This document shows, piece by piece, positions 10,971 through 64,000 of a DNA stretch of 64,000 bases. The translations under genes were made by a program, and so were the position numbers. The stretch's first letter is position 1. Each line of letters opens with the position of its first letter. The stretch is from assembly GCA_024682255.1 (NCBI GenBank), contig GCA_024682255.1_4716.1; one strand, given 5' to 3'. Source of the stretch: a phage. Below the pieces are notes generated by a model. It worked only from the letters and a program-made list of their open reading frames with translations. It did no database searches and was not told the DNA's origin.

Positions 10971-12557
10971 TTAGAAGTTGCCTTTGGTAGTTACCGCATC
11001 CACCAGGTTAAACAAATCAACGCTCAGCTTATATACCTCCTGCTGGCTACGGTTGAGCAGCGGGCTGTATGCAGATGGGTTGATGTTCGGCATGGTGTAC
11101 GGAATCGGTGCAGAACCGTCAACGCTGATCTTGAACTGGCTGTCCAGGAACAGGTTAATCGCGCCGCTCACCATAACCGCATTCGGGTTGTTGCCCAACA
11201 TGGAGGGTAGGATATTGGTAATCATGTCAGAACGCATTTGTTCGGCAGCACGGTTACAATCGTATCCTTTAATGAACGGTACAGCATCGGTAACCGCAAC
11301 AGCCCACTGACCAGGCATGATACCGAGTTCTGGGTGACCGTGGTTGTCAGCAATGAAACGGAACGACTCCAACATGCGATATGTCATCGCAGCAGGCATC
11401 ATTGCAGCAAGCGATGAACAATACAGCGTTGGATAATCGATCACGTCCCAGCTCTGGCTATCAGTCGGCATCCAACCAAACTCGGTGGTTGCTGACGTAC
11501 CACGACGAGCTTCCACATACGGGAATAACGTTAAGACGTCACGGATATGTTCACCGAACATCCGTTTCATGTCCGCCCAACTCAGGCTACCGCTGAAAGC
11601 GAATCCTTCATCACGCATAATCGCACCGAATACCGGATGCGCAACCAGCGGTTCTTCACGAACAGCTTGAGCGGCTTCTACGTAAATATCCTCGTTCTCT
11701 GCGCTACCTGGATGAGACCCATTTTCGTACGTCTGACGAATAGCTCCAACATTATCGAAGGCTTTTCTCAGATAGATGGTTGGGATGTTCGTATCAGCAC
11801 TAGCTGGTTTGATTTTCTCCGTTGCGAAACACATTGCTGCTTCCACACCACGGAAAACCGGTTCCGGCTGCGGTGGATAGGATGTACGATGAACCACATC
11901 AGCGTAGGCGGGATCGAACTGCTGCATTACGTTCTGCATGGCTGGGTCCATGAACTGGTTATCAAAACCACCATTGCCCACCCAACGTGCTGTCGATGCA
12001 TAAGTCAGCGTATCCTGAACACGAGTACTGAACTGAACATCACGATTAACAGGGTCGTATGCGCCGGTCAACAGGTTCGTTGCATCCATCGGGGTTGCAC
12101 GAACGATTTGCTTACCGAACATATCCGTTGTGGTTGTTTCGGTTACCTGGATTACGTTCGTGAAGAAGAACACCAGTTCATTCGGTAGATCGATAGCACG
12201 CGTTGTAAACGCATCGAGGCTTACAGAATGGTCGGTGTATCCAGAAATGTAATGGACACGCTTGGTTCCTGGTGCAAGGGCCAAGGATTCTTCTACAGCC
12301 ATCATGAAATGGAAACGGCGTGTGCCCCAACCATTTGCAATCTCCGAAACCCCCTCAGGTTCTGCAGACTGCTGCAACAAACCGGTTGCAAGCTTGTTGA
12401 TTGCTGATGGTGTTGTTGCCGTACCGAACCGCGTCGTGTTAATGAAGTCTTCGATGCTACGCATGCTATCTGCGTGGAATCGTAGTGGACGACGTTGTAC
12501 GTTGTTGTACGGTGCGGTTTCAACCATCAGTATTTCACGAACATTCATCGGGATCAT
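10971..12557 (-). CDS. hypothetical protein (528 aa)
   Basis: Long ORF, co-directional. Confidence 0.55.
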   Translation of the reverse strand: MIPMNVREILMVETAPYNNVQRRPLRFHADSMRSIEDFINTTRFGTATTPSAINKLATGLLQQSAEPEGVSEIANGWGTRRFHFMMAVEESLALAPGTKRVHYISGYTDHSVSLDAFTTRAIDLPNELVFFFTNVIQVTETTTTDMFGKQIVRATPMDATNLLTGAYDPVNRDVQFSTRVQDTLTYASTARWVGNGGFDNQFMDPAMQNVMQQFDPAYADVVHRTSYPPQPEPVFRGVEAAMCFATEKIKPASADTNIPTIYLRKAFDNVGAIRQTYENGSHPGSAENEDIYVEAAQAVREEPLVAHPVFGAIMRDEGFAFSGSLSWADMKRMFGEHIRDVLTLFPYVEARRGTSATTEFGWMPTDSQSWDVIDYPTLYCSSLAAMMPAAMTYRMLESFRFIADNHGHPELGIMPGQWAVAVTDAVPFIKGYDCNRAAEQMRSDMITNILPSMLGNNPNAVMVSGAINLFLDSQFKISVDGSAPIPYTMPNINPSAYSPLLNRSQQEVYKLSVDLFNLVDAVTTKGNF

Positions 12558-12558
12558 T

Positions 12559-14148
12559 TTATTTTTTTCCTCTTAAATTTACTACGTGTTCATTTAATCG
12601 AACAACTAATTGCACAAGCTGCTGACGGATATCAGCTGGACAAAGCATCAATCCTTTACGATCAGCTGGGACTTTCTCAAGGATTTCCGGGCCTGCTGCT
12701 GAAACATCCCAGTCCCATTCACAAAACGCATCGGCCACCATGTTAATACCGACAACCGGTAAAGTTGTACGTTCATCTTCATACATGGCGTGTGGATACA
12801 ATTTATTGACAGTAATGATCTCCTGTGGTTTTAATTGGTGGATAATCTGATAAACATCGTCGCGTTTAACCTGGATACCTACGGTCAGCGCGGCCAGTTG
12901 AGGAAAACCCCAATGGTCTAACAAGCAAGCTGCGATGGCTAACGCTTTTGCCTGATGCACGGCTTCAATCGGTGCCAGACTTCTCGCCGGAAGATGGCTA
13001 TCAAGCAACCATTGTGCCAGTGCTCGGCATCCACGGTTGATTGGTTTTAACTCAACGCTGTCATCATGCTTAGCGTACGTGTATCCGTCGTAACGTTTTG
13101 CGATACGCGCATACATGTCTTCAACTTTACCGTAAGGTGCCGTTTCGTCGACGTCGTGTAACACACGTTCCATCTGGGTAAGATACGCGATATCAAGAAT
13201 GAGTACACGCGGTGAACGTTTATCTTTCACCATCAGCGCATCAATCACGCCTTGACTGTCTTCATCTTGCGCGTTCCCTCGTGGGGTTTTCTCACGAATC
13301 GGTCCGCTGAAACGTCGTTCCGTACAAAGGTTATTCACATAGCTAAAGATCAGTGTTACCAGATGCGTACAACTTACCAACACCCCATCCTTAACGACAG
13401 GCTGTACAGCTTGGTCCAAATCACGTACGGCGAGACGGCGGACGATAGCTTGTGAACGCAACCAGCCGGGCACTTTCTCCGTCGACATGTAATCCACGGT
13501 CATCGACAGCGTGATCTTTTTATCACCCGTCTGTGCACGGATATAGTCTTCCAGTCGGTCGTAAGCAGCGATATCATGAATGCGTGTTTTATACATCAAC
13601 GACATAGCCACTTCTTCTTTACGGACCGTCCCGTACGTTTTCCCTGCGTCAATCAGAAACTCTGCCCAAATCGGCACCATCAGACGGACGTAGATTGCTA
13701 ACGCCGTTAACTCAACGTAATCATTTCGTAAATAGGTTTTCTCAGGTATGTCATCCTCACCTAATGTTGTTTTCATGTCCGGTGGTAATTTTACCCAACC
13801 TGGGGTATTACACAACGCCAGAATCTCTTCATACACAACCGGTTTGTAAATTTCACCAACAGCGCGACTCAACTCCTCCATTTGTTGCTGTGGAGCAATG
13901 TAGTTATCCATCGCTTCACGTGCTTTAACGAACCCTTCGAAGATGTCGTCAATTCGACGTGGGTTCTTTTGTTCTATCCAGGCGAGATACTTGTTAATCT
14001 CCCGCATCTGATTACTAGCCATATCCCCATCGATCTTGATATAACCCTGACCTGAAAATTCCACAGTACGTCCATCACGGTGTTTGATGAGGTAGTGATC
14101 CAGCTTTTCTTTTCCTTGCGTCGTAATGACGGGCACTATGTGCATAAC
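12559..14148 (-). CDS. hypothetical protein (about 530 aa)
   Basis: Long ORF; probable start at internal ATG (MHIVPV...) preceded by AAGAGG RBS; ORF track extends to 14280. Confidence 0.55.
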   Translation of the reverse strand, partial: VMHIVPVITTQGKEKLDHYLIKHRDGRTVEFSGQGYIKIDGDMASNQMREINKYLAWIEQKNPRRIDDIFEGFVKAREAMDNYIAPQQQMEELSRAVGEIYKPVVYEEILALCNTPGWVKLPPDMKTTLGEDDIPEKTYLRNDYVELTALAIYVRLMVPIWAEFLIDAGKTYGTVRKEEVAMSLMYKTRIHDIAAYDRLEDYIRAQTGDKKITLSMTVDYMSTEKVPGWLRSQAIVRRLAVRDLDQAVQPVVKDGVLVSCTHLVTLIFSYVNNLCTERRFSGPIREKTPRGNAQDEDSQGVIDALMVKDKRSPRVLILDIAYLTQMERVLHDVDETAPYGKVEDMYARIAKRYDGYTYAKHDDSVELKPINRGCRALAQWLLDSHLPARSLAPIEAVHQAKALAIAACLLDHWGFPQLAALTVGIQVKRDDVYQIIHQLKPQEIITVNKLYPHAMYEDERTTLPVVGINMVADAFCEWDWDVSAAGPEILEKVPADRKGLMLCPADIRQQLVQLVVRLNEHVVNLRGKK

Positions 14149-14349: not shown

Positions 14350-15141
14350 TTAGAACGCTAAGCCATCAAAGGCTACGGACGGATCATCGTCGTCATTTGC
14401 GCTTGGCGCATCCCAACGGGTATCAGGGGCCGCTGAAGCCGAACTTGATGCGTTAGAGTTACCGTTGTACTGGCCGTTACCAGCATTACGGTTACCGCCA
14501 CCGTTGTTATTGTTACGGTTATAGCTATTGTTGCCACCATTACTTACGCTACGGCTTTCACCGTCGAAATTGGTTGCGAGGATGCTCGGCAACACTGCGC
14601 GATGAATACGTACAAATTCCAACGCACAAAGCGGAGAAACAACCCCGATCTGTAAAGGTTGACCAGACTCATCAACCAGAGCGTGGAAGCGCGGTGGCTT
14701 GAATACGAATTGGATGTTCGGTTTTTGGTACGCGGTTACAGCGATATATACCGAACCATCATCATTCTTACCAACCCATGTTGTACTTTCGGTAATCTGT
14801 TTCTTCTTACCTGGGTTATTGCGATCGTCGATAACCTTTTCGTTCTTCATCGCAAAACGTTGGCCTGGTTTACCCTTAGCAACCTGCTCGAGGATCGCAA
14901 GCAGGTTATAGAACGCGTATGAGCTCATGCGCGCCCAAATGCTTTCAGCGCGACCCTGCTGGTCTTTACGACCGGTGTAAACCGTGATACGCGGTTGATT
15001 CTTAGCAACGCTAATTTTCAATGAGGGGATTGAATTACCGCCCTCAACCTTTTCGTCCGCCCACAGTTTCCAGTTGTTGTCGTCATAAGCCGTAGGAATA
15101 ATGTTTCCTTGTGGTTTACTGCCCGAATTCCAATTGCTCAT
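14350..15141 (-). CDS. hypothetical protein; possible SSB-like architecture
   Basis: 263 aa; globular N-terminal part, then Asn/Gly-rich linker (NGGNNSYNRNNNNGGGNRNAGNGQYNGN), then acidic tip DDDDPSVAFDGLAF reminiscent of SSB C-terminal tails. Confidence 0.4.
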   Translation of the reverse strand: MSNWNSGSKPQGNIIPTAYDDNNWKLWADEKVEGGNSIPSLKISVAKNQPRITVYTGRKDQQGRAESIWARMSSYAFYNLLAILEQVAKGKPGQRFAMKNEKVIDDRNNPGKKKQITESTTWVGKNDDGSVYIAVTAYQKPNIQFVFKPPRFHALVDESGQPLQIGVVSPLCALEFVRIHRAVLPSILATNFDGESRSVSNGGNNSYNRNNNNGGGNRNAGNGQYNGNSNASSSASAAPDTRWDAPSANDDDDPSVAFDGLAF

Positions 15142-15214
15142 TTTCAGCCTCGTTACGTAGTGTGAATCAATTTCTGGTTCAGATGATAGTTAATATTAGT
15201 TAAAAATTACAGCC

Positions 15215-16048
15215 TCAGCGGAACATGTCCAACAGAAAACGTTTTGCAAAAGGGTCGCGTAACTGGTTGACACCGAAGCGTGTACGGTCTTCCGTTGTTA
15301 ATGGATTCCACTGACTCTGTTTCGCAAGATCTAACAGCATCCTTTTTATTTTCACCGGTCCGCTGTTAAACTGTACGGCCTGGTCACCGAACGTTCCCAA
15401 TGTCATCTTTGTAAATGGGAGGTTCGCAACCTCTGGACGATCCCCACCAGTAAGTTTGGTCGACCACTGATGTTTTCGTTTCAAGGTTCCGGTATGGCTT
15501 TCTACCAAAATAAGTTCACCAAAACCGGTTCTTGCCAACAAGTCAGAAACATAGTGCGTAGTGATATACGACGTTTTGGTTATCGTGGGTAATTTACAAT
15601 CCATCGATTCGATATTAGGGAGTCGATCTACAGACGCCATCAACCCACGATAAAGTGTAGCGAGTCCTTTTTGTTTTTCGGTATGTGGCTCCTTGTGTAT
15701 AGCGTGCGGATAAACACGCTTTATTGATGCATAGGTTGGCGCATATATCCGCAAGCGAATATGGGGAACGAGTTCATTCACCAGCTGCCTTAGCTGTAGT
15801 AACTCGTTTTGAAAATCCCCTGTTATCATCGATAATGGTAATTTATGCTGCTCGACGTCTTCAAAGCTTTCAACAAAATTGCGTGCTAAAGTACGCAGGT
15901 TGAACAACCAATCCATCGGTGTTTCTGGCTGTTGCTGCACTGCTGATAATGTTGCTGACGTCCCTACCGATAAAGGATAATCACCTAACGTGCGGGCGTA
16001 CATATTGCTCATACCCCACAACTCCTTCTTATCATGGCAACGTATCAA
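15215..16048 (-). CDS. hypothetical protein (277 aa)
   Basis: ORF in minus-strand array. Confidence 0.5.
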   Translation of the reverse strand: MIRCHDKKELWGMSNMYARTLGDYPLSVGTSATLSAVQQQPETPMDWLFNLRTLARNFVESFEDVEQHKLPLSMITGDFQNELLQLRQLVNELVPHIRLRIYAPTYASIKRVYPHAIHKEPHTEKQKGLATLYRGLMASVDRLPNIESMDCKLPTITKTSYITTHYVSDLLARTGFGELILVESHTGTLKRKHQWSTKLTGGDRPEVANLPFTKMTLGTFGDQAVQFNSGPVKIKRMLLDLAKQSQWNPLTTEDRTRFGVNQLRDPFAKRFLLDMFR

Positions 16049-17174
16049 GCCAAGCAGAAACCTTTAAGGCATCAACGTTCGGGTATTTATTACGAATGCG
16101 TTCGACCAACAAACGCTTAACGTTGTCCTTTGTCAAGTCCCCACCTTTCTCGATAACGTTATTGACAAAACTGTTCTTTAATAGCGACTGGTTGTTCTTA
16201 GCGTCCGTTTTAATTGACCAAACGAAGCCTGGATACAAAGAAGGAATGGAGCGAAACGTTTTCGCCGCATCGTCTTCCTTATCGCAGCGTATTCGAATAT
16301 GATCGCCCTTCTTCAATGGAGCCAGTTCCCGTTCCAGAACGCGGACGATTTCATCTCCAACAAGACCGTGCAGTTTTATCGTCTTGTAGACATCTGCTTT
16401 CTTGTTCTCAACAAATTCCCACTGGTCGTTAAACGTTTCCGTTAACATATAACGGAGATACCCTTTTGGACCTTCTTCACCGTGCGCCAAGCGACCGAAC
16501 GAACCACCAACCATGATACGTCCTTTCTGGGATTGTAAGTGGATGTGCCCGCTCACGACCCACCCTTGGGTCTTCTCCACCATTGCGTTATACGCATCAC
16601 TGCTATGAACACATGTTGCTTTTAACGCTTCTGGTGGAAGCTGATATTCAAACGCACCGTGCATCAGAATGAAGTCCGGCGATCCCTTCTCATCAATAAG
16701 TCGGTTCACAGCCGACAACGTCACATCCGGATCGTGGCTGTAGTTATCTGGAAGATAAAGTACTTTTAAACCGAAGTCTTCATCAACCATGCAGAGATCA
16801 TCGTAATAACGAACTTTCGCTCCTATCTCCATGACCTCGTTCTGTTCAACGAACCACTGGCTTTGCTTCTGGTCGTGTAAATTGGTACCCTCAAGAAAGA
16901 TCAACGTAATATCGTGTTTTCTTGCATACCGTAACAACCAGGTACCCCAGGCACGAACAGCAACCACGTCACTCGTCACAAATGTCGTGATACGATCGAA
17001 GACATCACCACTGAATGTAATCACGTCAAGCAGCGCAGGATCTTCTTTTGTAATGTAATAACGCAGTTGGCTAATCAGGTTTACTGTCGGTGTTTGACGA
17101 TGGATAAAGTGAATATCCGACAAGTTGATTCCACGTAATACCCCAGGCGTTTTATTTCGACTGAAGTCTCGCAT
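16032..17174 (-). CDS. Mre11/SbcD-family metallophosphoesterase nuclease
   Basis: Calcineurin-like motifs in order: LSDIH (I), SGDVFD (II), EGTNLHD (III, GNH[DE]), ILMHGAFE (IV), VSGHIHLQ (V). Confidence 0.7.
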   Translation of the reverse strand: MRDFSRNKTPGVLRGINLSDIHFIHRQTPTVNLISQLRYYITKEDPALLDVITFSGDVFDRITTFVTSDVVAVRAWGTWLLRYARKHDITLIFLEGTNLHDQKQSQWFVEQNEVMEIGAKVRYYDDLCMVDEDFGLKVLYLPDNYSHDPDVTLSAVNRLIDEKGSPDFILMHGAFEYQLPPEALKATCVHSSDAYNAMVEKTQGWVVSGHIHLQSQKGRIMVGGSFGRLAHGEEGPKGYLRYMLTETFNDQWEFVENKKADVYKTIKLHGLVGDEIVRVLERELAPLKKGDHIRIRCDKEDDAAKTFRSIPSLYPGFVWSIKTDAKNNQSLLKNSFVNNVIEKGGDLTKDNVKRLLVERIRNKYPNVDALKVSAWLDTLP

Positions 17175-21636: not shown

Positions 21637-23051
21637 CTGTAGTTTAATTTGGTCGAACGTATTCCAATTTCAATCCATGCCAATTACCGCCTTTACTAAT
21701 AGCGGTACTTATCGTAGTCGGATGTACTTTATGTTCTTCAGCAAGGGCGAATCTATCAGGATAGACTTTATGTGTACCATCCTCAAACACCACCTTTACT
21801 GGGAACCTTTGTAATCCACCAGTTTTTGGTCTAGGCTCTTTAGGAATATATTTACACTCGTTCACATCACCAGGATAATTCCTTGTCCACCATGCTTTCC
21901 AACCGTTTCTGGAAAACGTCTTATCTCCATGACATAAGCTATGGCTTAATGTCGCATAACTCACTCCCGCCATTGTTGCCGCCATTACGGTACTTTCCAT
22001 GTGGTACTTGTCTCCATCGGGCGATATTAAAACCAGCCCGCCGTAAATAACATACGACTTACCGACGTCTTCGGATGTGAAACCAACAAATTCCATTCCA
22101 TGGGTAGCCGCATCGTAATACTTCATCAACGGCCATTGTCGTGTTGTACGGAACCATTTTGAAATCTGGGTGTGTGGGATACCGTAACACTTGGCTGCAT
22201 CACGCATGCTGTAATGTTCGGTTATCTCACCAGTTCTCAAATCCTTTATCCATACGGTTTTAGCTTTCCAGTTCAAGCCGGTACGATAGGCATGGTACGT
22301 ATTTTGGGATTGACTTGTCCATTCAAGATTATCCAGGCGGTTGTTATCTTTAACTCCATCAAGATGGTTACCTACTAACATTGATCCCTCAGGAAGCATA
22401 GGTTTTTCACGAAAGGTTGATAGAACAACATGATGAGCTGCTATATCTCTACCTTCATGTCTAACCCTTACATATCCGAATATGTTAGTTTTTCCTACTT
22501 CCTCTCCAGTATAGGCATCTATAATGACACCCTCCTCGGAAGCGGCAAGTCCTGGATAATCTTTACAGTGGTAAAATCCTGGGAATTTTGTCTCTCTAAG
22601 TTTCATCTTCTCTCCGTTATCGGCCAACAGAGAGAAAACGTTCCTCGGAGGCCGACGTTTTCAAATTAAACTATGTTATCGACTATATCTTCATCCTCAT
22701 TGCGAGGAGACTCTCGTTTGGGTTTGTGTTTAACAAAGCCTACTCTACTCAACATCGCGTCTTTCGATAGTCTGTGAGCACACATCTTAACGAATATTCG
22801 TAGATTCCTACAGGCAGGTGAATATTCTTGTTGAGATGCTTCGCTGCGGATTATTCCCGTCCTACCTCTTTTACCATACCCAGGTCATTACGCTGGCCCT
22901 CATCTATGTCACCATGATGAGTTGGTGTGTAGTCCGATTACAGAAACTTCCCGTCAATTAGAGAGTTTTAACTATGCTCCTGTTACCAGGAACCCGACTC
23001 CGACGGCATCAATAAATCAACGTAAGTTATTGATTTAATTGAAGAAATTGG
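21637..23051 (-). mobile_element. group I intron A (about 1.4 kb) carrying an HNH homing endonuclease gene, inserted in the beta-prime NADFDGD codons
   Basis: Minus strand: guide CCGTCG-GAGTCGG (23006-22994) pairs with exon 1 end CCGACTT (P1, U-G at splice site) and exon 2 start CGACGG (P10); P2 hairpin TCCTGGTAACAGGA; P TAATTGACGGGAAG (22947-22960); Q AATCCGCAGC (22843-22852; P4 with bulged A); R GCTCACAGACTAT (22767-22779); S AAGATATAGTC (22681-22691; P7 GACTA/TAGTC); HEG in 3' extension; terminal G at 21637. Confidence 0.8.
21644..22627 (-). CDS. HNH homing endonuclease (intron-encoded)
   Basis: 327-aa ORF; HNH motif HHVVL...VGNHLDGVKDNNRLDNLEW; sits between intron A core and 3' splice site; annotated start is TTG, first ATG 21 nt downstream (MKLRETK...). 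Confidence 0.8.
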   Translation of the reverse strand: MADNGEKMKLRETKFPGFYHCKDYPGLAASEEGVIIDAYTGEEVGKTNIFGYVRVRHEGRDIAAHHVVLSTFREKPMLPEGSMLVGNHLDGVKDNNRLDNLEWTSQSQNTYHAYRTGLNWKAKTVWIKDLRTGEITEHYSMRDAAKCYGIPHTQISKWFRTTRQWPLMKYYDAATHGMEFVGFTSEDVGKSYVIYGGLVLISPDGDKYHMESTVMAATMAGVSYATLSHSLCHGDKTFSRNGWKAWWTRNYPGDVNECKYIPKEPRPKTGGLQRFPVKVVFEDGTHKVYPDRFALAEEHKVHPTTISTAISKGGNWHGLKLEYVRPN

Positions 23052-24399: not shown

Positions 24400-26295
24400 T
24401 TAGAACAGGTTGAATGCCCCACCCATGTTGTTAACGCCAACATTCGGACGATCGCTACGTGCGTAGATGTTACCGGAGATGTTACCCAGACCACGAGCAC
24501 GTGCTGCCATGTTACCACGAACAGCGGTACCTGCCAGGTGCTGGATGTTCTCAGGACGGATGGTGAAGCCAGCATCAGCCGCAGCTTCGATCAGCGCCTG
24601 CAGTGCTAACGGATCGAAGTCGTAACGCATTGCCCAGCCGGTTTGTTCCCAGCTACCAGACAGAACACGATCAATGATTTCGTGACGAGCGACAACACGC
24701 TGAGACATCGTCATATCGGTACGGTCGAAGCTGTCTTCCCAAGCTTCTACGGTATCCGGGTTAGTGATGTTCATCATGTACAGATCGTCCATATCACGAA
24801 TATCGTGACGGTGACCATCCTGGTGGTTGTAGTAACCCAGCGGGATACGGTTACCGGTAGCGTAGACCAGCGGTTGGCCGTATTGATATTTCTTGCTGAA
24901 GCAACCCAGGGTAGTATCATCGAATGCACGGAAGAGGGCTTTGTAACCTTCGGAGATTTCTTGAACTTTACCGTCAACGTTGCCCGTATAGATCTTCTCA
25001 GCCGCCGGGATCATACGCAGCAGCCAGCTATACTCGCCTTCTTCCGGTACGTCGATAGAAATCAGCAGAGACGGATACAGAACCTGTTGCAGGAACTTGT
25101 AAATCTGCTCGTTGGTTTGCGTAGACAGATCCAGCGGTGCAGTCACTTCAGGATCCAGCACCATCGCCAGAGCACCTGGGTTATGCGGACCAATACCACG
25201 AGCCGCGTTGCTGATTAAAGACTGTGCCCATGCCATGCCGCTGTTCAGCGTAGCGATGGTACCAATCAGACCCAGCACGAAGCTGTTCGGTGTGAACGCA
25301 TCCAGCTCCAGCGGGTAAACGCTGGTCATCACGTAACGCGGCTGGTATTGTACAGTCGGCGGTACCGGATAGCCGTTAACCAGAACAGGGCCTTGGTTGA
25401 AGGTCGGGTTCTGCGGGCTGTAGGTCAGGTCAATGTAACCGGTGGTGGCGACCAGACGCTGTTGACTATCGTAATCGCTCATCGCTTGACGGATGCGGTT
25501 AGAGATAGTTACAGTGATGTCAGAACGCACAGGGTTACCAACAATATCGCTGTCCTGCATACCGCTGGTGTTGTACTGAACGCTGCTGATTGGCTGATCG
25601 CTTGCCATCATGCCCAGGTTGAACTGCGGCAGACCCAGTTTATCACCGAGACGGATTTCGATCGCGGTTTGGATTGCGTTATCTGCAGCAGACAGCAGGG
25701 TGGTTGCCAGATGCGCAGATTCAGCGGTGATTTCATTGGTCACCACAGCCAGACCAGCGATACGAACAGTACCGTTAGACTTACCGCCAATAGCTGAGTA
25801 CATTGCCGCCATGACTTCGTTGATGAACGTACCGTTCAGGTTATCAACCCAGGTACGCGGTACCAGAATGTTACCATGCGGACCTTGTTCTTCACGACGC
25901 GGCAGCGGAGCCAGACCAGCAACCAGCGGCAGGACGTAACCGAAGAAGTGGTTATGATCACCAACTTTTGCACCGCTCATAACAACCAGGGTCGGATACG
26001 GTACGCTGTACTGGTTCGGGTCAACCGCAACAAAGATGAAGTCGTCTTTGAACTGGGTATCTTCCAGATATTTCTCCATCAGACGACGGAGATTCAGTAC
26101 CTGCTCGGAGCCGGTATTACGGCTGATACGACGGCTCAGTGTACGGTTGATCGTACGCATCGTATGAGTTACTTTAGGACGGTCGGCAAAATCTGCAGCG
26201 GTTTCCAGCGCCTCATCAGCACGTTGTGCGGTGCGGGTTTCAGCTGCACGAATTTCTACATTATCGTTACCGTTATTACGTACGTCTAAGCCCAT
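24400..26295 (-). CDS. abundant early protein; candidate phage-nucleus shell protein (chimallin-like)
   Basis: 631 aa; ATG with AAGAGGA RBS; strongly biased codon usage (CGT/GGT/CTG/AAC) typical of highly expressed genes; TATATTAC early-promoter motif about 72 nt upstream; immediately upstream of beta-prime N gene. Assignment rests on size and context only. Confidence 0.45.
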   Translation of the reverse strand: MGLDVRNNGNDNVEIRAAETRTAQRADEALETAADFADRPKVTHTMRTINRTLSRRISRNTGSEQVLNLRRLMEKYLEDTQFKDDFIFVAVDPNQYSVPYPTLVVMSGAKVGDHNHFFGYVLPLVAGLAPLPRREEQGPHGNILVPRTWVDNLNGTFINEVMAAMYSAIGGKSNGTVRIAGLAVVTNEITAESAHLATTLLSAADNAIQTAIEIRLGDKLGLPQFNLGMMASDQPISSVQYNTSGMQDSDIVGNPVRSDITVTISNRIRQAMSDYDSQQRLVATTGYIDLTYSPQNPTFNQGPVLVNGYPVPPTVQYQPRYVMTSVYPLELDAFTPNSFVLGLIGTIATLNSGMAWAQSLISNAARGIGPHNPGALAMVLDPEVTAPLDLSTQTNEQIYKFLQQVLYPSLLISIDVPEEGEYSWLLRMIPAAEKIYTGNVDGKVQEISEGYKALFRAFDDTTLGCFSKKYQYGQPLVYATGNRIPLGYYNHQDGHRHDIRDMDDLYMMNITNPDTVEAWEDSFDRTDMTMSQRVVARHEIIDRVLSGSWEQTGWAMRYDFDPLALQALIEAAADAGFTIRPENIQHLAGTAVRGNMAARARGLGNISGNIYARSDRPNVGVNNMGGAFNLF

Positions 26296-26359
26296 TTGGG
26301 ATTCCTCTTTTCTTAAACTTTATTAAATGACGTCATTGAATCAGCTTCTACTCGCTCAT

Positions 26360-60618: not shown

Positions 60619-61769
60619 TTATTTAGCGTCGTTAAAGTAAATATCAACAGCTCGTTCCGTTGCGTAGAGGAGACCAAGATTCACAGTCCCAACCACTTCC
60701 GGTGAACCGATGATACGGTTAGCGATACTGGTGCCACTGAAGATAGCATCAAGGGTGTGCCCGTCTTCGGTTTTGTTCACACCATGACCCACGGAAGAGA
60801 CAACGGATTTCGCTTGAGCTGCGAAGGTACCTTTATCACCCATCCCCGCACCAAGGTCGTAACGCATGAAAATACGGATGGCGATCTGGTTCTCGCCTAA
60901 CGGATTACCGTCTATTCTCACGTTACTGTTATTGATACGCCCCGTTGTTGCTTCGTTGAGTTTCAGTTCCTTAACGCGTTTAGCTCGTGCTTTATCCGCT
61001 TCACCGACGAGCGCTGCCATGGTTTCACTCATATCCTCAATCTGAGCGCGGTACAGTACATCGATCTGTACAACTTCACCATGAACGTCAGCACGTGGGT
61101 TATACTGACTCATACGACGTAATGCTTCAACGGCTTCCTGACTCTCATCACTCAGATCGGTTGCAATCGGTTCTTCCAGTGTTGCAAGGATCGTTCGAGG
61201 TTCAACGTGATCGCCGATTTTCACGAGACCGCGAATGTTGAGATGGGCGTCAACGATAAGCGTACGGCTCTTAATCGATGGTGTTACGAGACGATCGGCA
61301 AGATTGTCGAAGATATACGAACTGTCCTCGTGGGTCTCTGGAATATCCAGAATACCGACAAGAGACAGCACGCCTGCGCGCCAAACAACCTGACCTGGGT
61401 TCCACCAGTCGCGTTTAAAATAAAGACGATGGAAAACCACCACATCCTGATCCTTAACGCGATCCCCGACTTTATAATCGGTAATGAGATCGTGAGGATA
61501 ATACTTACCTGGTCCTTTCCCGATTATCGTACCGAGCTGGAAAACCTCTTCCCCTAACTCTGGATCGTCGTACTGTATCGTCAGCGCAGTTTTGGTGACC
61601 TTCTTGACAACACCATCGCCTTGGGCGGCAGCTGCGAAGAGTTTACCAACACGATGCGCGATAACAGTCTCACCGCCGGTGCGCCACGGTTGTACATCGT
61701 AACCTTCAGCAGCAATCATGCGGTTGTGCTGTATACCTATAAATACCAATCTCTTGGGCGAATTTAGTT
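60619..61769 (-). CDS. RNA polymerase beta-like subunit (second beta gene), exon 2 / middle segment
   Basis: VGILDIPETHEDSSYIFDNL ~ E. coli [33 protein letters not shown] ~ SGTVIDVQVFTRD; IAIRIFMRYDLGAGMGDKGTF...SVVS ~ [29 protein letters not shown]. No ATG at ORF start (annotated start is TTG), frame open back to 61770; 5' boundary approximate. Confidence 0.6.
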
Positions 61770-62261
61770 CTTATTCAACATAATCGTACTATTACCAGAA
61801 TAAGACTGAGATTAGATTGTTCAGATAAGGTCGTTGCTTGAAACGATCGTTTCAGCGCTCATCTTATCCCGGAGGCGACGATAGGCACATCACCTCCCGC
61901 TTGCGCTCTCACGCAAGAGCAGACTATATCACATCTCGTTTCAAACGGTGCTTCTTCAGCACCTCAACGAGAGTTCACTTCTTCCCAGCGCATCCAGCGC
62001 CATTCTCTTATCCAAGGAGAATGCCTCACTCGAGGGGTACAGGGGGATGAATCCCTTAGTCGTTGAACCTTTACCTTAGAACGCTTCACAGCGATCCTTA
62101 GGTACTTGGCTGCGGATTGTCCTTAAGCTATTATCTGTTTTTATACCATACCGTCTTTCTTTTCAGAATCCGTTTTGGTCGATAACAGCGATGGATGTCT
62201 TCGCAATTCAGTGAATCTCATCTACATGTCGCCACATAGACGGACCCTGCTATTAAAAGCG
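61770..62261 (-). ncRNA. group I intron C (ORF-less, about 0.5 kb) in beta gene
   Basis: Minus-strand core elements in order: P TGAATTGCGAAGAC (62197-62210), Q AATCCGCAGC (62109-62118), R GTTCAACGACTAAG (62055-62068), S GATATAGTC (61922-61930; P7 GACTA/TAGTC); sits between two beta-homologous ORFs that are consecutive in the beta alignment; exact splice sites not resolved. Confidence 0.6.
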
Positions 62262-64000
62262 TTAATCATCTCTATCAGCAGCAGGTACTGCAAGTGCTGA
62301 TGTACTCATTATTGACGAGCTACCATCCGTTTTCTCGTCGTAGGGTTTCGTTTCACCGTATACAGACACAATGTTTGCGTTAGGTGCAAGGTAAGCAGAG
62401 ATACCTACGTCCCCACTATCCTTCGTACCTTCGGATACAACACCAATGTCCGACTTGTCGTATTCACGATCGCGTGCGCGTCGAAGCGATGTCTTTGAAC
62501 GACCCCCAATACCGGTCATCGTCGCTTCTTCACCCTGCTTGATATCCAGCATCGGGTTGGTTTCATCGATCACGATGGAAGCACTGTCGTCGAGAATTTG
62601 GTTCCAGACACTTACCGGACTGATTGAGATTTTCTGGCGATTTCCTTGACTGCTGTTCTCATTCTGACGAATAGCGCCAACCAGATCCTTATACACCAAT
62701 TCAGCGAACTTATCGTACGTTTTAAAACGTTGGTAGTTCACATCGTTCGTGTTAGGAGCCCAATCATCCAGAAGCAATTCAACAGCACGCAGTAACAACA
62801 TGGCGAAATCGGTAGGTTCTCCCATGTTCTGCAGCAACATACGGCTTACCGGATCAACGAAAAGACGCTCCATGAGTTCAAGTTCGCGTAAATGACGAAC
62901 CTTAAGTCCGGCACCATCGACAACGTTAAAATAGATATCTCGATTGTCAAAAGCGCCGCGAGCGTAACCAATGTAGTTACGGTATTCGTTAAACCCACCC
63001 AGCAACAACGTCGTCATGCGGTCGTCTTTACTGAAGATCAAACTTTCGTCGTCAAAGCTCACCGCGAATTCATCGGGTGCTAGACCCATACGAGAACCGC
63101 GAGGTACCGTACGATAGTTTGCTTTAAGATGTTCTAATAACGGGGTGAGTCCGCCCAGATAACTTAGAACAACACCGACCGGAATACGTACACCCATGAA
63201 TTCAAGATCGGCAGCTTCGATCGGCATCTTGGCCGCATTGATGCCGAAGAAATCAGGGAACGTCCCTACAGGTGTTGGTGTTTGTCCTGACTGACAGATA
63301 TAGAGCTGATTGCGTTTATCGATTGCTAAGAATTCACCCAGCGTGTTACGCGCAAACGTCAGGAGCCCTTCGGCTAACTGTTCGTTGAACCGATCTTCCC
63401 CAATGAACTCCGGTAGCGTTTTTATATCGAGACGTATATCCCAATCAGCAAATTGGATTTGGGTATAATTGCGCGCAAGCACAGCGAAGTAGTACGGAAC
63501 TTTGACAGCTGGATCAAAGACGTTACCACGTTTTAACGTGGTTAAGGGTGAGGACTTATCGTAATACATCGCTGTAAGTTGACGTGTTAGCCAACGACCC
63601 GCATTATTAACGACGCGCTCTGAACGTTTAACAAACACCTTACCGTAGGCGGTACTCAATGCAACTTCGGATGACGATACCTTTCTAATAGGTTTATCAA
63701 CACGTTGTTTACGCATCCGGTATTTGATGCCGTTAACGACATAAATGCCGTCCTTACGAACCTTCGGCAACATCACCGGGAACGTGGTCGGGACACCGCC
63801 TACAGGAGCCAGTTTAATCGTGATGACTTGATAATCCCCCATCACGTCAACGACATCTTCAACTTTATATCCCGTGACAGGGTAACCTGCCTGCTGTACC
63901 GCAACAACGGCAGCTGCGATGTCCTTTTGCATTACGTGTTCGACGTAATGTTTATCCCACACCGCGAGCGTCGATTTACATAAGCTCTTGTCGACGATAA
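62262..64000 (-). CDS. RNA polymerase beta-like subunit (second beta gene), exon 1; 5' end beyond window
   Basis: TGIGGRSKTSLRRARDREYDKSDIGVVSEGTKDSGDVGISAYLAPNANIVSVYGE ~ E. coli beta [52 protein letters not shown]; frame open to window edge (annotated start is GTG). Confidence 0.7.
   Translation of the reverse strand, partial: IVDKSLCKSTLAVWDKHYVEHVMQKDIAAAVVAVQQAGYPVTGYKVEDVVDVMGDYQVITIKLAPVGGVPTTFPVMLPKVRKDGIYVVNGIKYRMRKQRVDKPIRKVSSSEVALSTAYGKVFVKRSERVVNNAGRWLTRQLTAMYYDKSSPLTTLKRGNVFDPAVKVPYYFAVLARNYTQIQFADWDIRLDIKTLPEFIGEDRFNEQLAEGLLTFARNTLGEFLAIDKRNQLYICQSGQTPTPVGTFPDFFGINAAKMPIEAADLEFMGVRIPVGVVLSYLGGLTPLLEHLKANYRTVPRGSRMGLAPDEFAVSFDDESLIFSKDDRMTTLLLGGFNEYRNYIGYARGAFDNRDIYFNVVDGAGLKVRHLRELELMERLFVDPVSRMLLQNMGEPTDFAMLLLRAVELLLDDWAPNTNDVNYQRFKTYDKFAELVYKDLVGAIRQNENSSQGNRQKISISPVSVWNQILDDSASIVIDETNPMLDIKQGEEATMTGIGGRSKTSLRRARDREYDKSDIGVVSEGTKDSGDVGISAYLAPNANIVSVYGETKPYDEKTDGSSSIMSTSALAVPAADRDD

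What the first reader, a model, noticed from the sequence alone, without database searches (positions are those of the whole stretch)
14350..15141. Possible divergent SSB-like protein
The architecture resembles single-stranded DNA-binding proteins: a globular N-terminal region, a roughly 40-residue Asn/Gly-rich flexible linker, and an acidic C-terminal tip ...DDDDPSVAFDGLAF (compare E. coli SSB ...DDDIPF).
Basis: inference. Interest (0 to 1): 0.4.

Follow-up and report, generated by a model that had tools for sequence, protein, structure and literature searches.

The report
ChmC, a known jumbo-phage RNA-binding protein
This gene is ChmC (also called Imp6), an already characterised protein of nucleus-forming jumbo phages that binds single-stranded RNA and DNA with a Whirly-type fold rather than the OB fold of classical SSBs, although its relatives end in a tail almost identical to the bacterial SSB tail.

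The parts
14350..15141 (-). chmC / imp6 coding sequence (263 aa plus stop), the orthologue of Goslar gp176
   Evidence: ORF listing. 262 of 263 residues are identical to Goslar_00176, with one extra Gly in the N/G tract. tblastn reaches PHIKZ067 and PhiPA3 061. The paper names Goslar gp176 as ChmC.
14572..15108 (-). Whirly/PUR-like nucleic-acid-binding core (aa ~12-190): strands 40-46, 49-59 and 65-71 with helix 74-89, then strands 95-105, 113-125, 131-137 and 143-146 with helix 165-190
14434..14553 (-). Asn/Gly-rich intrinsically disordered linker (aa 197-236; 35% N, 20% G, 20% S)
   Evidence: Composition and enrichment P = 2e-9. pLDDT is 41-50. The only difference from Goslar gp176, one extra Gly, lies here. 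The paper describes this N/G-rich region, within the disordered C-terminus, as the driver of condensate formation.
14353..14421 (-). Acidic C-terminal tip (aa 241-263, TRWDAPSANDDDDPSVAFDGLAF). It is a divergent form of the family's DFDDDxPF tip.
   Evidence: Net charge -5. The family consensus ends DFDDDxPF. The C-anchored commonest residues are D-F-D-D-D-I-P-F. The window's last 8 residues match only 2 of 8 positions.
15148..15151 (-). Shine-Dalgarno GAGG, 6 nt upstream of the ATG
   Evidence: Read directly from the sequence.
12559..14145 (-). Downstream neighbour: homologue of phiKZ gp68 (Goslar gp175), a non-virion RNA polymerase subunit in phiKZ
   Evidence: BLASTP to PHIKZ068, E = 7e-34, full length. 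PHROG 3209. The statement that gp68 is part of the nvRNAP comes from bioRxiv 10.1101/2024.03.27.586873. The start is placed at the ATG that corresponds to the Goslar annotation.
10971..12557 (-). Second downstream neighbour: homologue of phiKZ gp69 = Imp1/PicA (Goslar gp174), the direct binding partner of gp67/Imp6
   Evidence: BLASTP to PHIKZ069, E = 2e-16, full length. PHROG 3141.
15215..16012 (-). Upstream neighbour: phiKZ gp66-like protein (Goslar gp177), function unknown, part of the conserved gene block
   Evidence: PHROG 3229, E = 7e-65. Same position in phiKZ, PhiPA3, 201phi2-1, RAY and Goslar.
16032..17174 (-). SbcD-like nuclease gene (Goslar gp178), at the upstream edge of the conserved block
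   Evidence: PHROG 100, E = 3.7e-40. Annotated as SbcD-like in PhiPA3, 201phi2-1 and RAY at the same position.

Best explanation
The ORF encodes ChmC (Chimallin C, also named Imp6) of a Goslar-like nucleus-forming jumbo phage (Chimalliviridae). Its N-terminal ~190 residues fold as a tandem beta-beta-beta(-beta)-alpha repeat of the Whirly/PUR type. In the PhiPA3 orthologue this domain assembles into a homotetramer and binds single-stranded RNA, and more weakly ssDNA, on a basic surface. The Asn/Gly-rich disordered linker gives multivalent weak self-association, which yields RNA-protein condensates and, in PhiPA3, localisation to the nuclear shell. The protein is made early and is abundant. It binds phage mRNAs inside and at the phage nucleus, associates with the shell-bound import factor Imp1/PicA, and is required for mRNAs to reach the cytoplasm and so for phage protein production and virion assembly. 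What is shown here: the identity of the gene, the fold, the disorder, the synteny and the conservation of the tail motif. What is shown in the literature on orthologues or on Goslar gp176 itself: tetramer formation, RNA and ssDNA binding, condensates, the knock-down phenotypes and Imp1 binding. What remains inferred: the physical mechanism of mRNA translocation, and the function of the acidic tip. The tip may be autoinhibitory, a docking peptide, or both.
Confidence: 0.88

Rival explanations
1. It is a divergent member of the classical OB-fold SSB family that coats ssDNA at the phage replication fork.
For: The linker plus acidic tip recalls bacterial SSB. The PhiPA3 orthologue binds ssDNA. No SSB is annotated in Goslar.
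Confidence: 0.02
2. It is a non-OB functional analogue of bacterial SSB. Besides, or instead of, handling mRNA, the Whirly tetramer would coat ssDNA in the phage nucleus. Its C-terminal DFDDDIPF-like tip would be a docking peptide that recruits replication, recombination or import proteins (phage-encoded or host SSB-interacting proteins), in the way the SSB-Ct does.
For: The commonest residues at the last 8 positions in 145 homologues are D-F-D-D-D-I-P-F. 30 of the 145 share 6 or more of 8 identities with the E. coli SSB-Ct, and 3 are identical (SSB-Ct sequence and binding mode from PMC10164576). The tetramer, disordered linker, tip and phase separation parallel E. coli SSB. ssDNA is bound at 184 nM. 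Plant Whirly proteins, the best structural matches, are organellar ssDNA binders (the role of plant Whirly proteins is my own knowledge). No SSB is annotated in Goslar, and the classic OB SSB is listed for T4-like jumbo phages, not for the phiKZ group. Knock-down gives small nuclei. In PhiPA3, deleting the C-terminus abolishes shell localisation.
Against: The protein prefers RNA about 3-fold, and eCLIP finds it on phage mRNAs. mRNA accumulates in the nucleus on knock-down. The Goslar-type tip in this window matches the SSB-Ct at only 2 of 8 positions, so the motif is not strictly required. Absence of an annotated SSB is weak evidence in a genome that is mostly 'hypothetical'. The acidic tail is equally well explained as an autoinhibitory electronegative cluster. 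No partner for the tip has been identified.
Confidence: 0.2
3. It is primarily a structural or adaptor subunit of the nuclear protein-import machinery (Imp1/PicA-Imp6), and its nucleic-acid binding is secondary.
For: There is a direct, SEC-stable gp67-Imp1 complex of about 2:1. The PicA/Imp1 homologue lies two genes downstream in the window. A review lists ChmC/Imp6 among the contributors to cargo import.
Against: Imp6 was not recovered in the genetic selections for import-defective phages. It was found only as a binding partner. The RNA-binding-surface mutant fails to behave like wild type in Goslar, and mRNA localisation changes on knock-down.
Confidence: 0.15

Closest known systems
ChmC / Imp6 of Chimalliviridae (Goslar gp176, PhiKZ gp67, PhiPA3 gp61; Enustun et al., NAR 2024, PMC11077065)
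   Same: It is the same protein: 262 of 263 residues are identical to Goslar gp176. The fold, the N/G-rich linker, the acidic tail and the gene neighbourhood all match.
   Different: There is one extra Gly in the N/G tract. The host phage is a Goslar relative at about 97% nucleotide identity, not Goslar itself.
Bacterial homotetrameric SSB (E. coli SSB; Pfam PF00436)
   Same: The modular logic is shared: an oligomeric core that binds single-stranded nucleic acid, a poorly conserved low-complexity disordered linker, and a conserved acidic amphipathic C-terminal tip. The ChmC family's commonest tip residues equal the SSB-Ct sequence DFDDDIPF. Both proteins phase-separate in a way that depends on the disordered C-terminal region, and both bind ssDNA.
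   Different: The core fold is Whirly/PUR-like, not an OB barrel, and there is no sequence homology. The protein prefers RNA. Its documented role is mRNA handling at the phage nucleus, not replication. The Goslar-type tip is divergent (..DDDDPSVAFDGLAF).
Whirly / PUR / MRP superfamily (plant p24/PBF-2 and StWhy2, T. brucei MRP1/MRP2, Pur-alpha)
   Different: Sequence identity is only 8-14% and no Pfam profile matches. The first repeat has three strands rather than four. The long N/G linker and the SSB-like tip are absent from those families.
Phage SSBs with acidic C-terminal tails (T4 gp32, T7 gp2.5); comparison from my own knowledge
   Same: They have an acidic C-terminus, aromatic-ended in gp2.5, that both autoinhibits nucleic-acid binding and docks replisome partners.
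   Different: Those proteins have OB folds and are established replication proteins. Nothing of the kind has been shown for ChmC.

Membership tests
ChmC / Imp6 family (Chimalliviridae) | Sequence homology to the named members Goslar gp176, PhiKZ gp67 and PhiPA3 gp61 | tested here: met
   99% identity to Goslar gp176. tblastn hits PHIKZ067 (E = 3e-12, 90% coverage) and PhiPA3 061 (E = 3e-8). PHROG 3284, E = 1.6e-36.
ChmC / Imp6 family (Chimalliviridae) | Position in the conserved block next to the nvRNAP subunit gp68 and Imp1/PicA gp69 | tested here: met
   The downstream ORFs match PHIKZ068 (E = 7e-34) and PHIKZ069 (E = 2e-16). The same order is seen in five phages.
ChmC / Imp6 family (Chimalliviridae) | Whirly-like core followed by a disordered C-terminus with N/G-rich and acidic sub-regions | tested here: met
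   This matches the description in PMC11077065.
ChmC / Imp6 family (Chimalliviridae) | High-affinity ssRNA binding, homotetramer, condensates with RNA | not testable with these tools
   Shown for PhiPA3 ChmC in vitro. The Rmut-equivalent basic residues K42, R51 and R71 are conserved here.
Classical OB-fold SSB (PF00436 and phage gp32 / gp2.5 types) | OB-fold (five-stranded beta-barrel) ssDNA-binding domain | tested here: not met
Classical OB-fold SSB (PF00436 and phage gp32 / gp2.5 types) | Match to an SSB sequence profile | tested here: not met
   No Pfam family matches at E<=1. The PHROG hit is a family of unknown function. The PDB sequence search found nothing relevant.
Classical OB-fold SSB (PF00436 and phage gp32 / gp2.5 types) | Disordered linker capped by the conserved acidic tip (SSB-Ct, DFDDDIPF) | tested here: inconclusive
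   At family level the feature is present: the commonest residues at the last eight positions are DFDDDIPF, and 80 of 145 homologues match 6 or more of 8 residue classes. In this window's protein the tip matches only 2 of 8 positions, although DDDD, Pro and a terminal Phe are present.
Classical OB-fold SSB (PF00436 and phage gp32 / gp2.5 types) | Role as the replication-fork ssDNA-coating protein | not testable with these tools
   ssDNA binding at 184 nM is reported for PhiPA3 ChmC. No replication assay has been reported.
Whirly / PUR / MRP structural superfamily | Tandem beta-beta-beta(-beta)-alpha repeats forming a nucleic-acid-binding sheet | tested here: met
Whirly / PUR / MRP structural superfamily | Match to the Whirly or PUR sequence profiles | tested here: not met
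   No Pfam hit. Membership is at the level of fold only.

The most novel reading that the evidence does not exclude
The ChmC family may be a convergent, non-OB 'SSB' of the phage nucleus. Its conserved C-terminal DFDDDIPF-type peptide, identical in its commonest residues to the bacterial SSB-Ct, would be a true docking motif. It could recruit phage replication, recombination or import proteins to single-stranded nucleic acid, or it could mimic host SSB to capture or divert host SSB-interacting proteins. No paper in the searched library links ChmC with SSB.
Probability: 0.2. Interest if true: 0.6.

Novelty: already known. Interest (0 to 1): 0.25.

Why it matters
As a gene call it adds nothing new, because ChmC/Imp6 of Goslar has already been studied by knock-down, microscopy and mRNA FISH. 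It matters in two ways. First, it shows that an 'SSB-like' tail architecture read from raw sequence can point to a protein that binds single-stranded nucleic acid even when the fold is unrelated. Second, the near-identity of the family's C-terminal tip to the bacterial SSB-Ct suggests a concrete, cheap experiment (tip peptides, single-residue C-terminal deletions) on two open questions: how ChmC is tethered at the nuclear shell or to Imp1/PicA, and what acts as the SSB in nucleus-forming phages.

Tried and rejected
- **Pfam and PDB sequence searches.** The Pfam scan of the ORF found no family. The PDB sequence search gave only spurious WD40 matches at E>0.1.
- **Word-indexed homologue search.** It found only 5 proteins, so I replaced it with the exhaustive HMMER search.
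- **Promoter and terminator scan.** The sigma-70 and intrinsic-terminator scan around the gene found nothing above shuffles. That is expected for a phage transcribed by its own RNA polymerases.
- **Literature searches.** The first search for 'Chimalliviridae + SSB' was too unspecific. 'ChmC + SSB' returned only irrelevant papers.
- **Tip scan of the Goslar genome.** The first version was too strict: it required 3 or more D/E in the last 10 residues and missed ChmC itself. I redid it with the last 16 residues.
- **P0006.** This hit (945 aa, 11 matched stretches) looked like a multi-domain relative. It is a perfect 85-aa tandem-repeat artefact and was excluded.
- **Opposite strand.** The short ORFs inside the gene on the plus strand (42-87 aa) have no support and were not pursued.
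- **Whole-proteome OB-fold scan.** I inspected only the product names in the RefSeq record.

Full report
**Observation.** The window carries an uninterrupted 263-codon ORF at 14350-15141 on the minus strand. A GAGG ribosome-binding site lies 6 nt upstream of the ATG (read). Residues 1-195 are ordinary, with a net charge of +6. Residues 197-236 are 55% Asn+Gly, against 14% in the rest (binomial P = 2e-9). The last 23 residues (TRWDAPSANDDDDPSVAFDGLAF) carry six Asp and have a net charge of -5, and the protein ends in Phe.

**Identity.** tblastn against phage genomes finds Escherichia phage vB_EcoM_Goslar at 98.9% identity. The hit is locus Goslar_00176 / gp176. The pairwise alignment shows 262 of 263 identical residues, the only difference being one extra Gly in the N/G tract. 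Over 24 kb the window is 96.8% identical to Goslar at the DNA level, so it comes from a close relative, not from Goslar itself. Weaker hits (22-33% identity over 80-90% of the globular part) fall in phiKZ-like jumbo phages of Pseudomonas, Erwinia, Vibrio, Burkholderia and Bacillus. They include PHIKZ067 and PhiPA3 gene 061. Pfam has no match. PHROGs places the protein in family 3284, 'unknown function'. The PDB sequence search finds nothing relevant.

**What the literature says.**
- Enustun et al. (NAR 2024, PMC11077065) name PhiPA3 gp61, PhiKZ gp67 and Goslar gp176 'Chimallin C' (ChmC).
- They report an AlphaFold-predicted Whirly/PUR-like fold and a homotetramer by SEC-MALS. Binding is Kd 58 nM for ssRNA and 184 nM for ssDNA, and it is abolished by the basic-surface mutants Kmut and Rmut.
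- They describe a disordered C-terminus made of a ~40-residue N/G-rich region and a ~15-residue S/D/E-rich region. Deleting it abolishes condensate formation and, in PhiPA3, shell localisation.
- In Goslar itself, dCas13d knock-down of gp176 reduces plaquing, nucleus growth, bouquet formation and phage protein levels, and leaves mRNAs inside the phage nucleus.
- A second group found that phiKZ gp67 binds the import factor Imp1/PicA (gp69) directly in a ~2:1 complex, and named it Imp6 (bioRxiv 10.1101/2024.03.27.586873).
- phiKZ orf67 tolerates no transposon insertions.
- Two recent reviews summarise it as ChmC/Imp6, an RNA-binding factor possibly involved in mRNA export.

**Independent checks made here.**
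- *Homologues.* An exhaustive HMMER search with residues 1-200 found 461 homologues at E<=1e-3.
- *Structure.* With a 138-sequence alignment, AlphaFold2 gave mean pLDDT 82.8 and pTM 0.73. pLDDT is above 95 over residues ~12-190 and 41-57 over residues 195-263. The topology is strands 40-46, 49-59 and 65-71 with helix 74-89, followed by strands 95-105, 113-125, 131-137 and 143-146 with helix 165-190.
- *Foldseek against the PDB.* It finds nothing at E<=0.001. Its only high-probability hits (0.92-0.98) are human PURA and MRP1.
- *Foldseek against viral models.* It finds only uncharacterised jumbo-phage proteins, for example from Pseudomonas phage EL and Klebsiella phages Eowyn and Miami.
- *RNA-binding residues.* The PhiPA3 residues R35, R44 and R63 align with K42, R51 and R71 here. 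The Kmut lysines are not conserved; they align with S37, Y55 and E66.
- *Synteny.* The order SbcD-like, gp66-like, ChmC, gp68-like, gp69-like is the same in phiKZ, PhiPA3, 201phi2-1, RAY and Goslar. The two downstream window ORFs match PHIKZ068 (E = 7e-34) and PHIKZ069 / Imp1 (E = 2e-16).

The functional intuition was still good. This is an oligomeric protein that binds single-stranded nucleic acid and carries a disordered linker and an acidic tail, and its orthologue does bind ssDNA. The verdict is 'partly supported'.

**An addition: the family's tip is the SSB-Ct motif.**
- *The motif.* The orthologue tails end ..FDEDMPSF (phiKZ)..FDDEIPNF (PhiPA3)..FADDLPF (RAY) and ..DDIPF (a metagenomic member). 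I took 145 homologues of 180-320 aa, which are representatives at 50% identity. Of these, 131 have three or more D/E in the last 12 residues. The last residue is F in 69, M in 28, W in 13 and L in 12. Twenty-nine end in D[DE]{1,2}[ILVM]PF.
- *Consensus.* The alignment consensus ends DFDDDxPF. Anchored at the C-terminus without gaps, the commonest residue at each of the last eight positions is D, F, D, D, D, I, P, F. Thirty sequences share 6 or more of 8 identities with that string, and three are identical to it.
[quoted passage not shown] Through its terminal Phe, its carboxylate and its Asp residues, the SSB-Ct docks about 20 partner proteins, and it also folds back on the OB domain (PMC10164576). 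E. coli SSB also phase-separates through its linker and tip.
- *Whether this has been reported.* The ChmC paper never uses the word SSB and interprets the tail as an 'electronegative cluster'. No paper in the searched library links ChmC and SSB.
- *Is there another SSB?* In the Goslar genome and the window, ChmC is the only ORF that combines a low-complexity linker (76-78% G/N/Q/S/P/A) with an acidic tip ending in a hydrophobic residue. No Goslar product is annotated as an SSB. A comparative study lists the classic OB-fold SSB as a hallmark of T4-like jumbo phages, not of the phiKZ group.
- *What follows.* These facts leave open, without demonstrating, that ChmC doubles as a non-OB SSB analogue, or that its tip is a docking peptide.
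- *Points against.* The protein prefers RNA and is found on mRNA. The tip in this very window is divergent, at 2 of 8 positions. Absence of annotation is weak evidence. I put this reading at about 0.2.

**Mechanism, with steps marked.** Shown here: gene identity, fold class, disorder, synteny and tail conservation. Shown in the literature for orthologues or for Goslar gp176: tetramer formation, ssRNA binding stronger than ssDNA binding, condensates that depend on the disordered C-terminus, nuclear or shell puncta, Imp1 binding, essentiality, and mRNA retention on knock-down. Inferred: ChmC coats nascent phage transcripts near the non-virion RNA polymerase and hands them to a shell-associated translocation site; and the acidic tip either masks the basic RNA-binding face until RNA arrives or docks a partner.

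**Novelty and score.** The feature is already known and has been studied experimentally in essentially this protein. Interest is low (0.25). What lifts it slightly is the SSB-Ct identity of the family's tail, which I did not find reported and which is easy to test.

Noticed in passing
window 61900-62266 (-), between ORFs 60619-61749 and 62262-63962: A group I intron (Rfam RF00028, 56.3 bits) splits an RNA polymerase beta-subunit gene. At the corresponding place Goslar has only 41 nt (208354-208394) inside an uninterrupted gp207. This phage therefore carries an intron insertion that Goslar lacks at this site.
   Followed up: partly
window 21644-22627 (-) and 22660-23041 (-): A second group I intron (54.8 bits) is shared with Goslar and lies next to the nvRNAP beta-prime gene. 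The adjacent 327-aa ORF carries an HNH_3-like motif (..NHLDGVKDNNRLDNLEW..). It has no megablast similarity to Goslar's HNH endonuclease gp186, which occupies the same slot, so the endonuclease appears to have been swapped.
   Followed up: partly
Goslar genome 46471-48081 (locus L009), outside the window: The DnaB-like replicative helicase gp43 also ends in a short acidic, aromatic-ended tail (..FDENAAPSNELQFDLEF). This is reminiscent of the acidic C-terminal tails of phage replisome proteins (the comparison is from my own knowledge).
   Followed up: no
proteins P0012, P0017, P0034, P0049 (419-466 aa): Some metagenomic homologues are about twice the normal length and match the ChmC core in two stretches, or in their C-terminal half. 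They may be tandem-duplicated or fused ChmC variants.
   Followed up: no
protein P0006 (945 aa): The second-best HMMER hit is an artefact. It is eleven perfect copies of an 85-aa unit whose weak matches add up, not a ChmC relative.
   Followed up: yes
protein P0001: A 263-aa protein 99% identical to the window's ChmC is deposited as a 'hypothetical protein' of Salmonella enterica serovar Schwarzengrund and sits on a 241-kb contig. A Goslar-like phage genome therefore appears inside a Salmonella assembly.
   Followed up: no
window 24400-26320 (-), approximate, mapped from Goslar 171003-172898: The nuclear shell protein ChmA (Goslar gp246) lies about 10 kb from chmC in the same window. The PhuZ tubulin and large terminase homologues lie further along. 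The coordinates are inferred from the collinear megablast map and were not checked individually.
   Followed up: no
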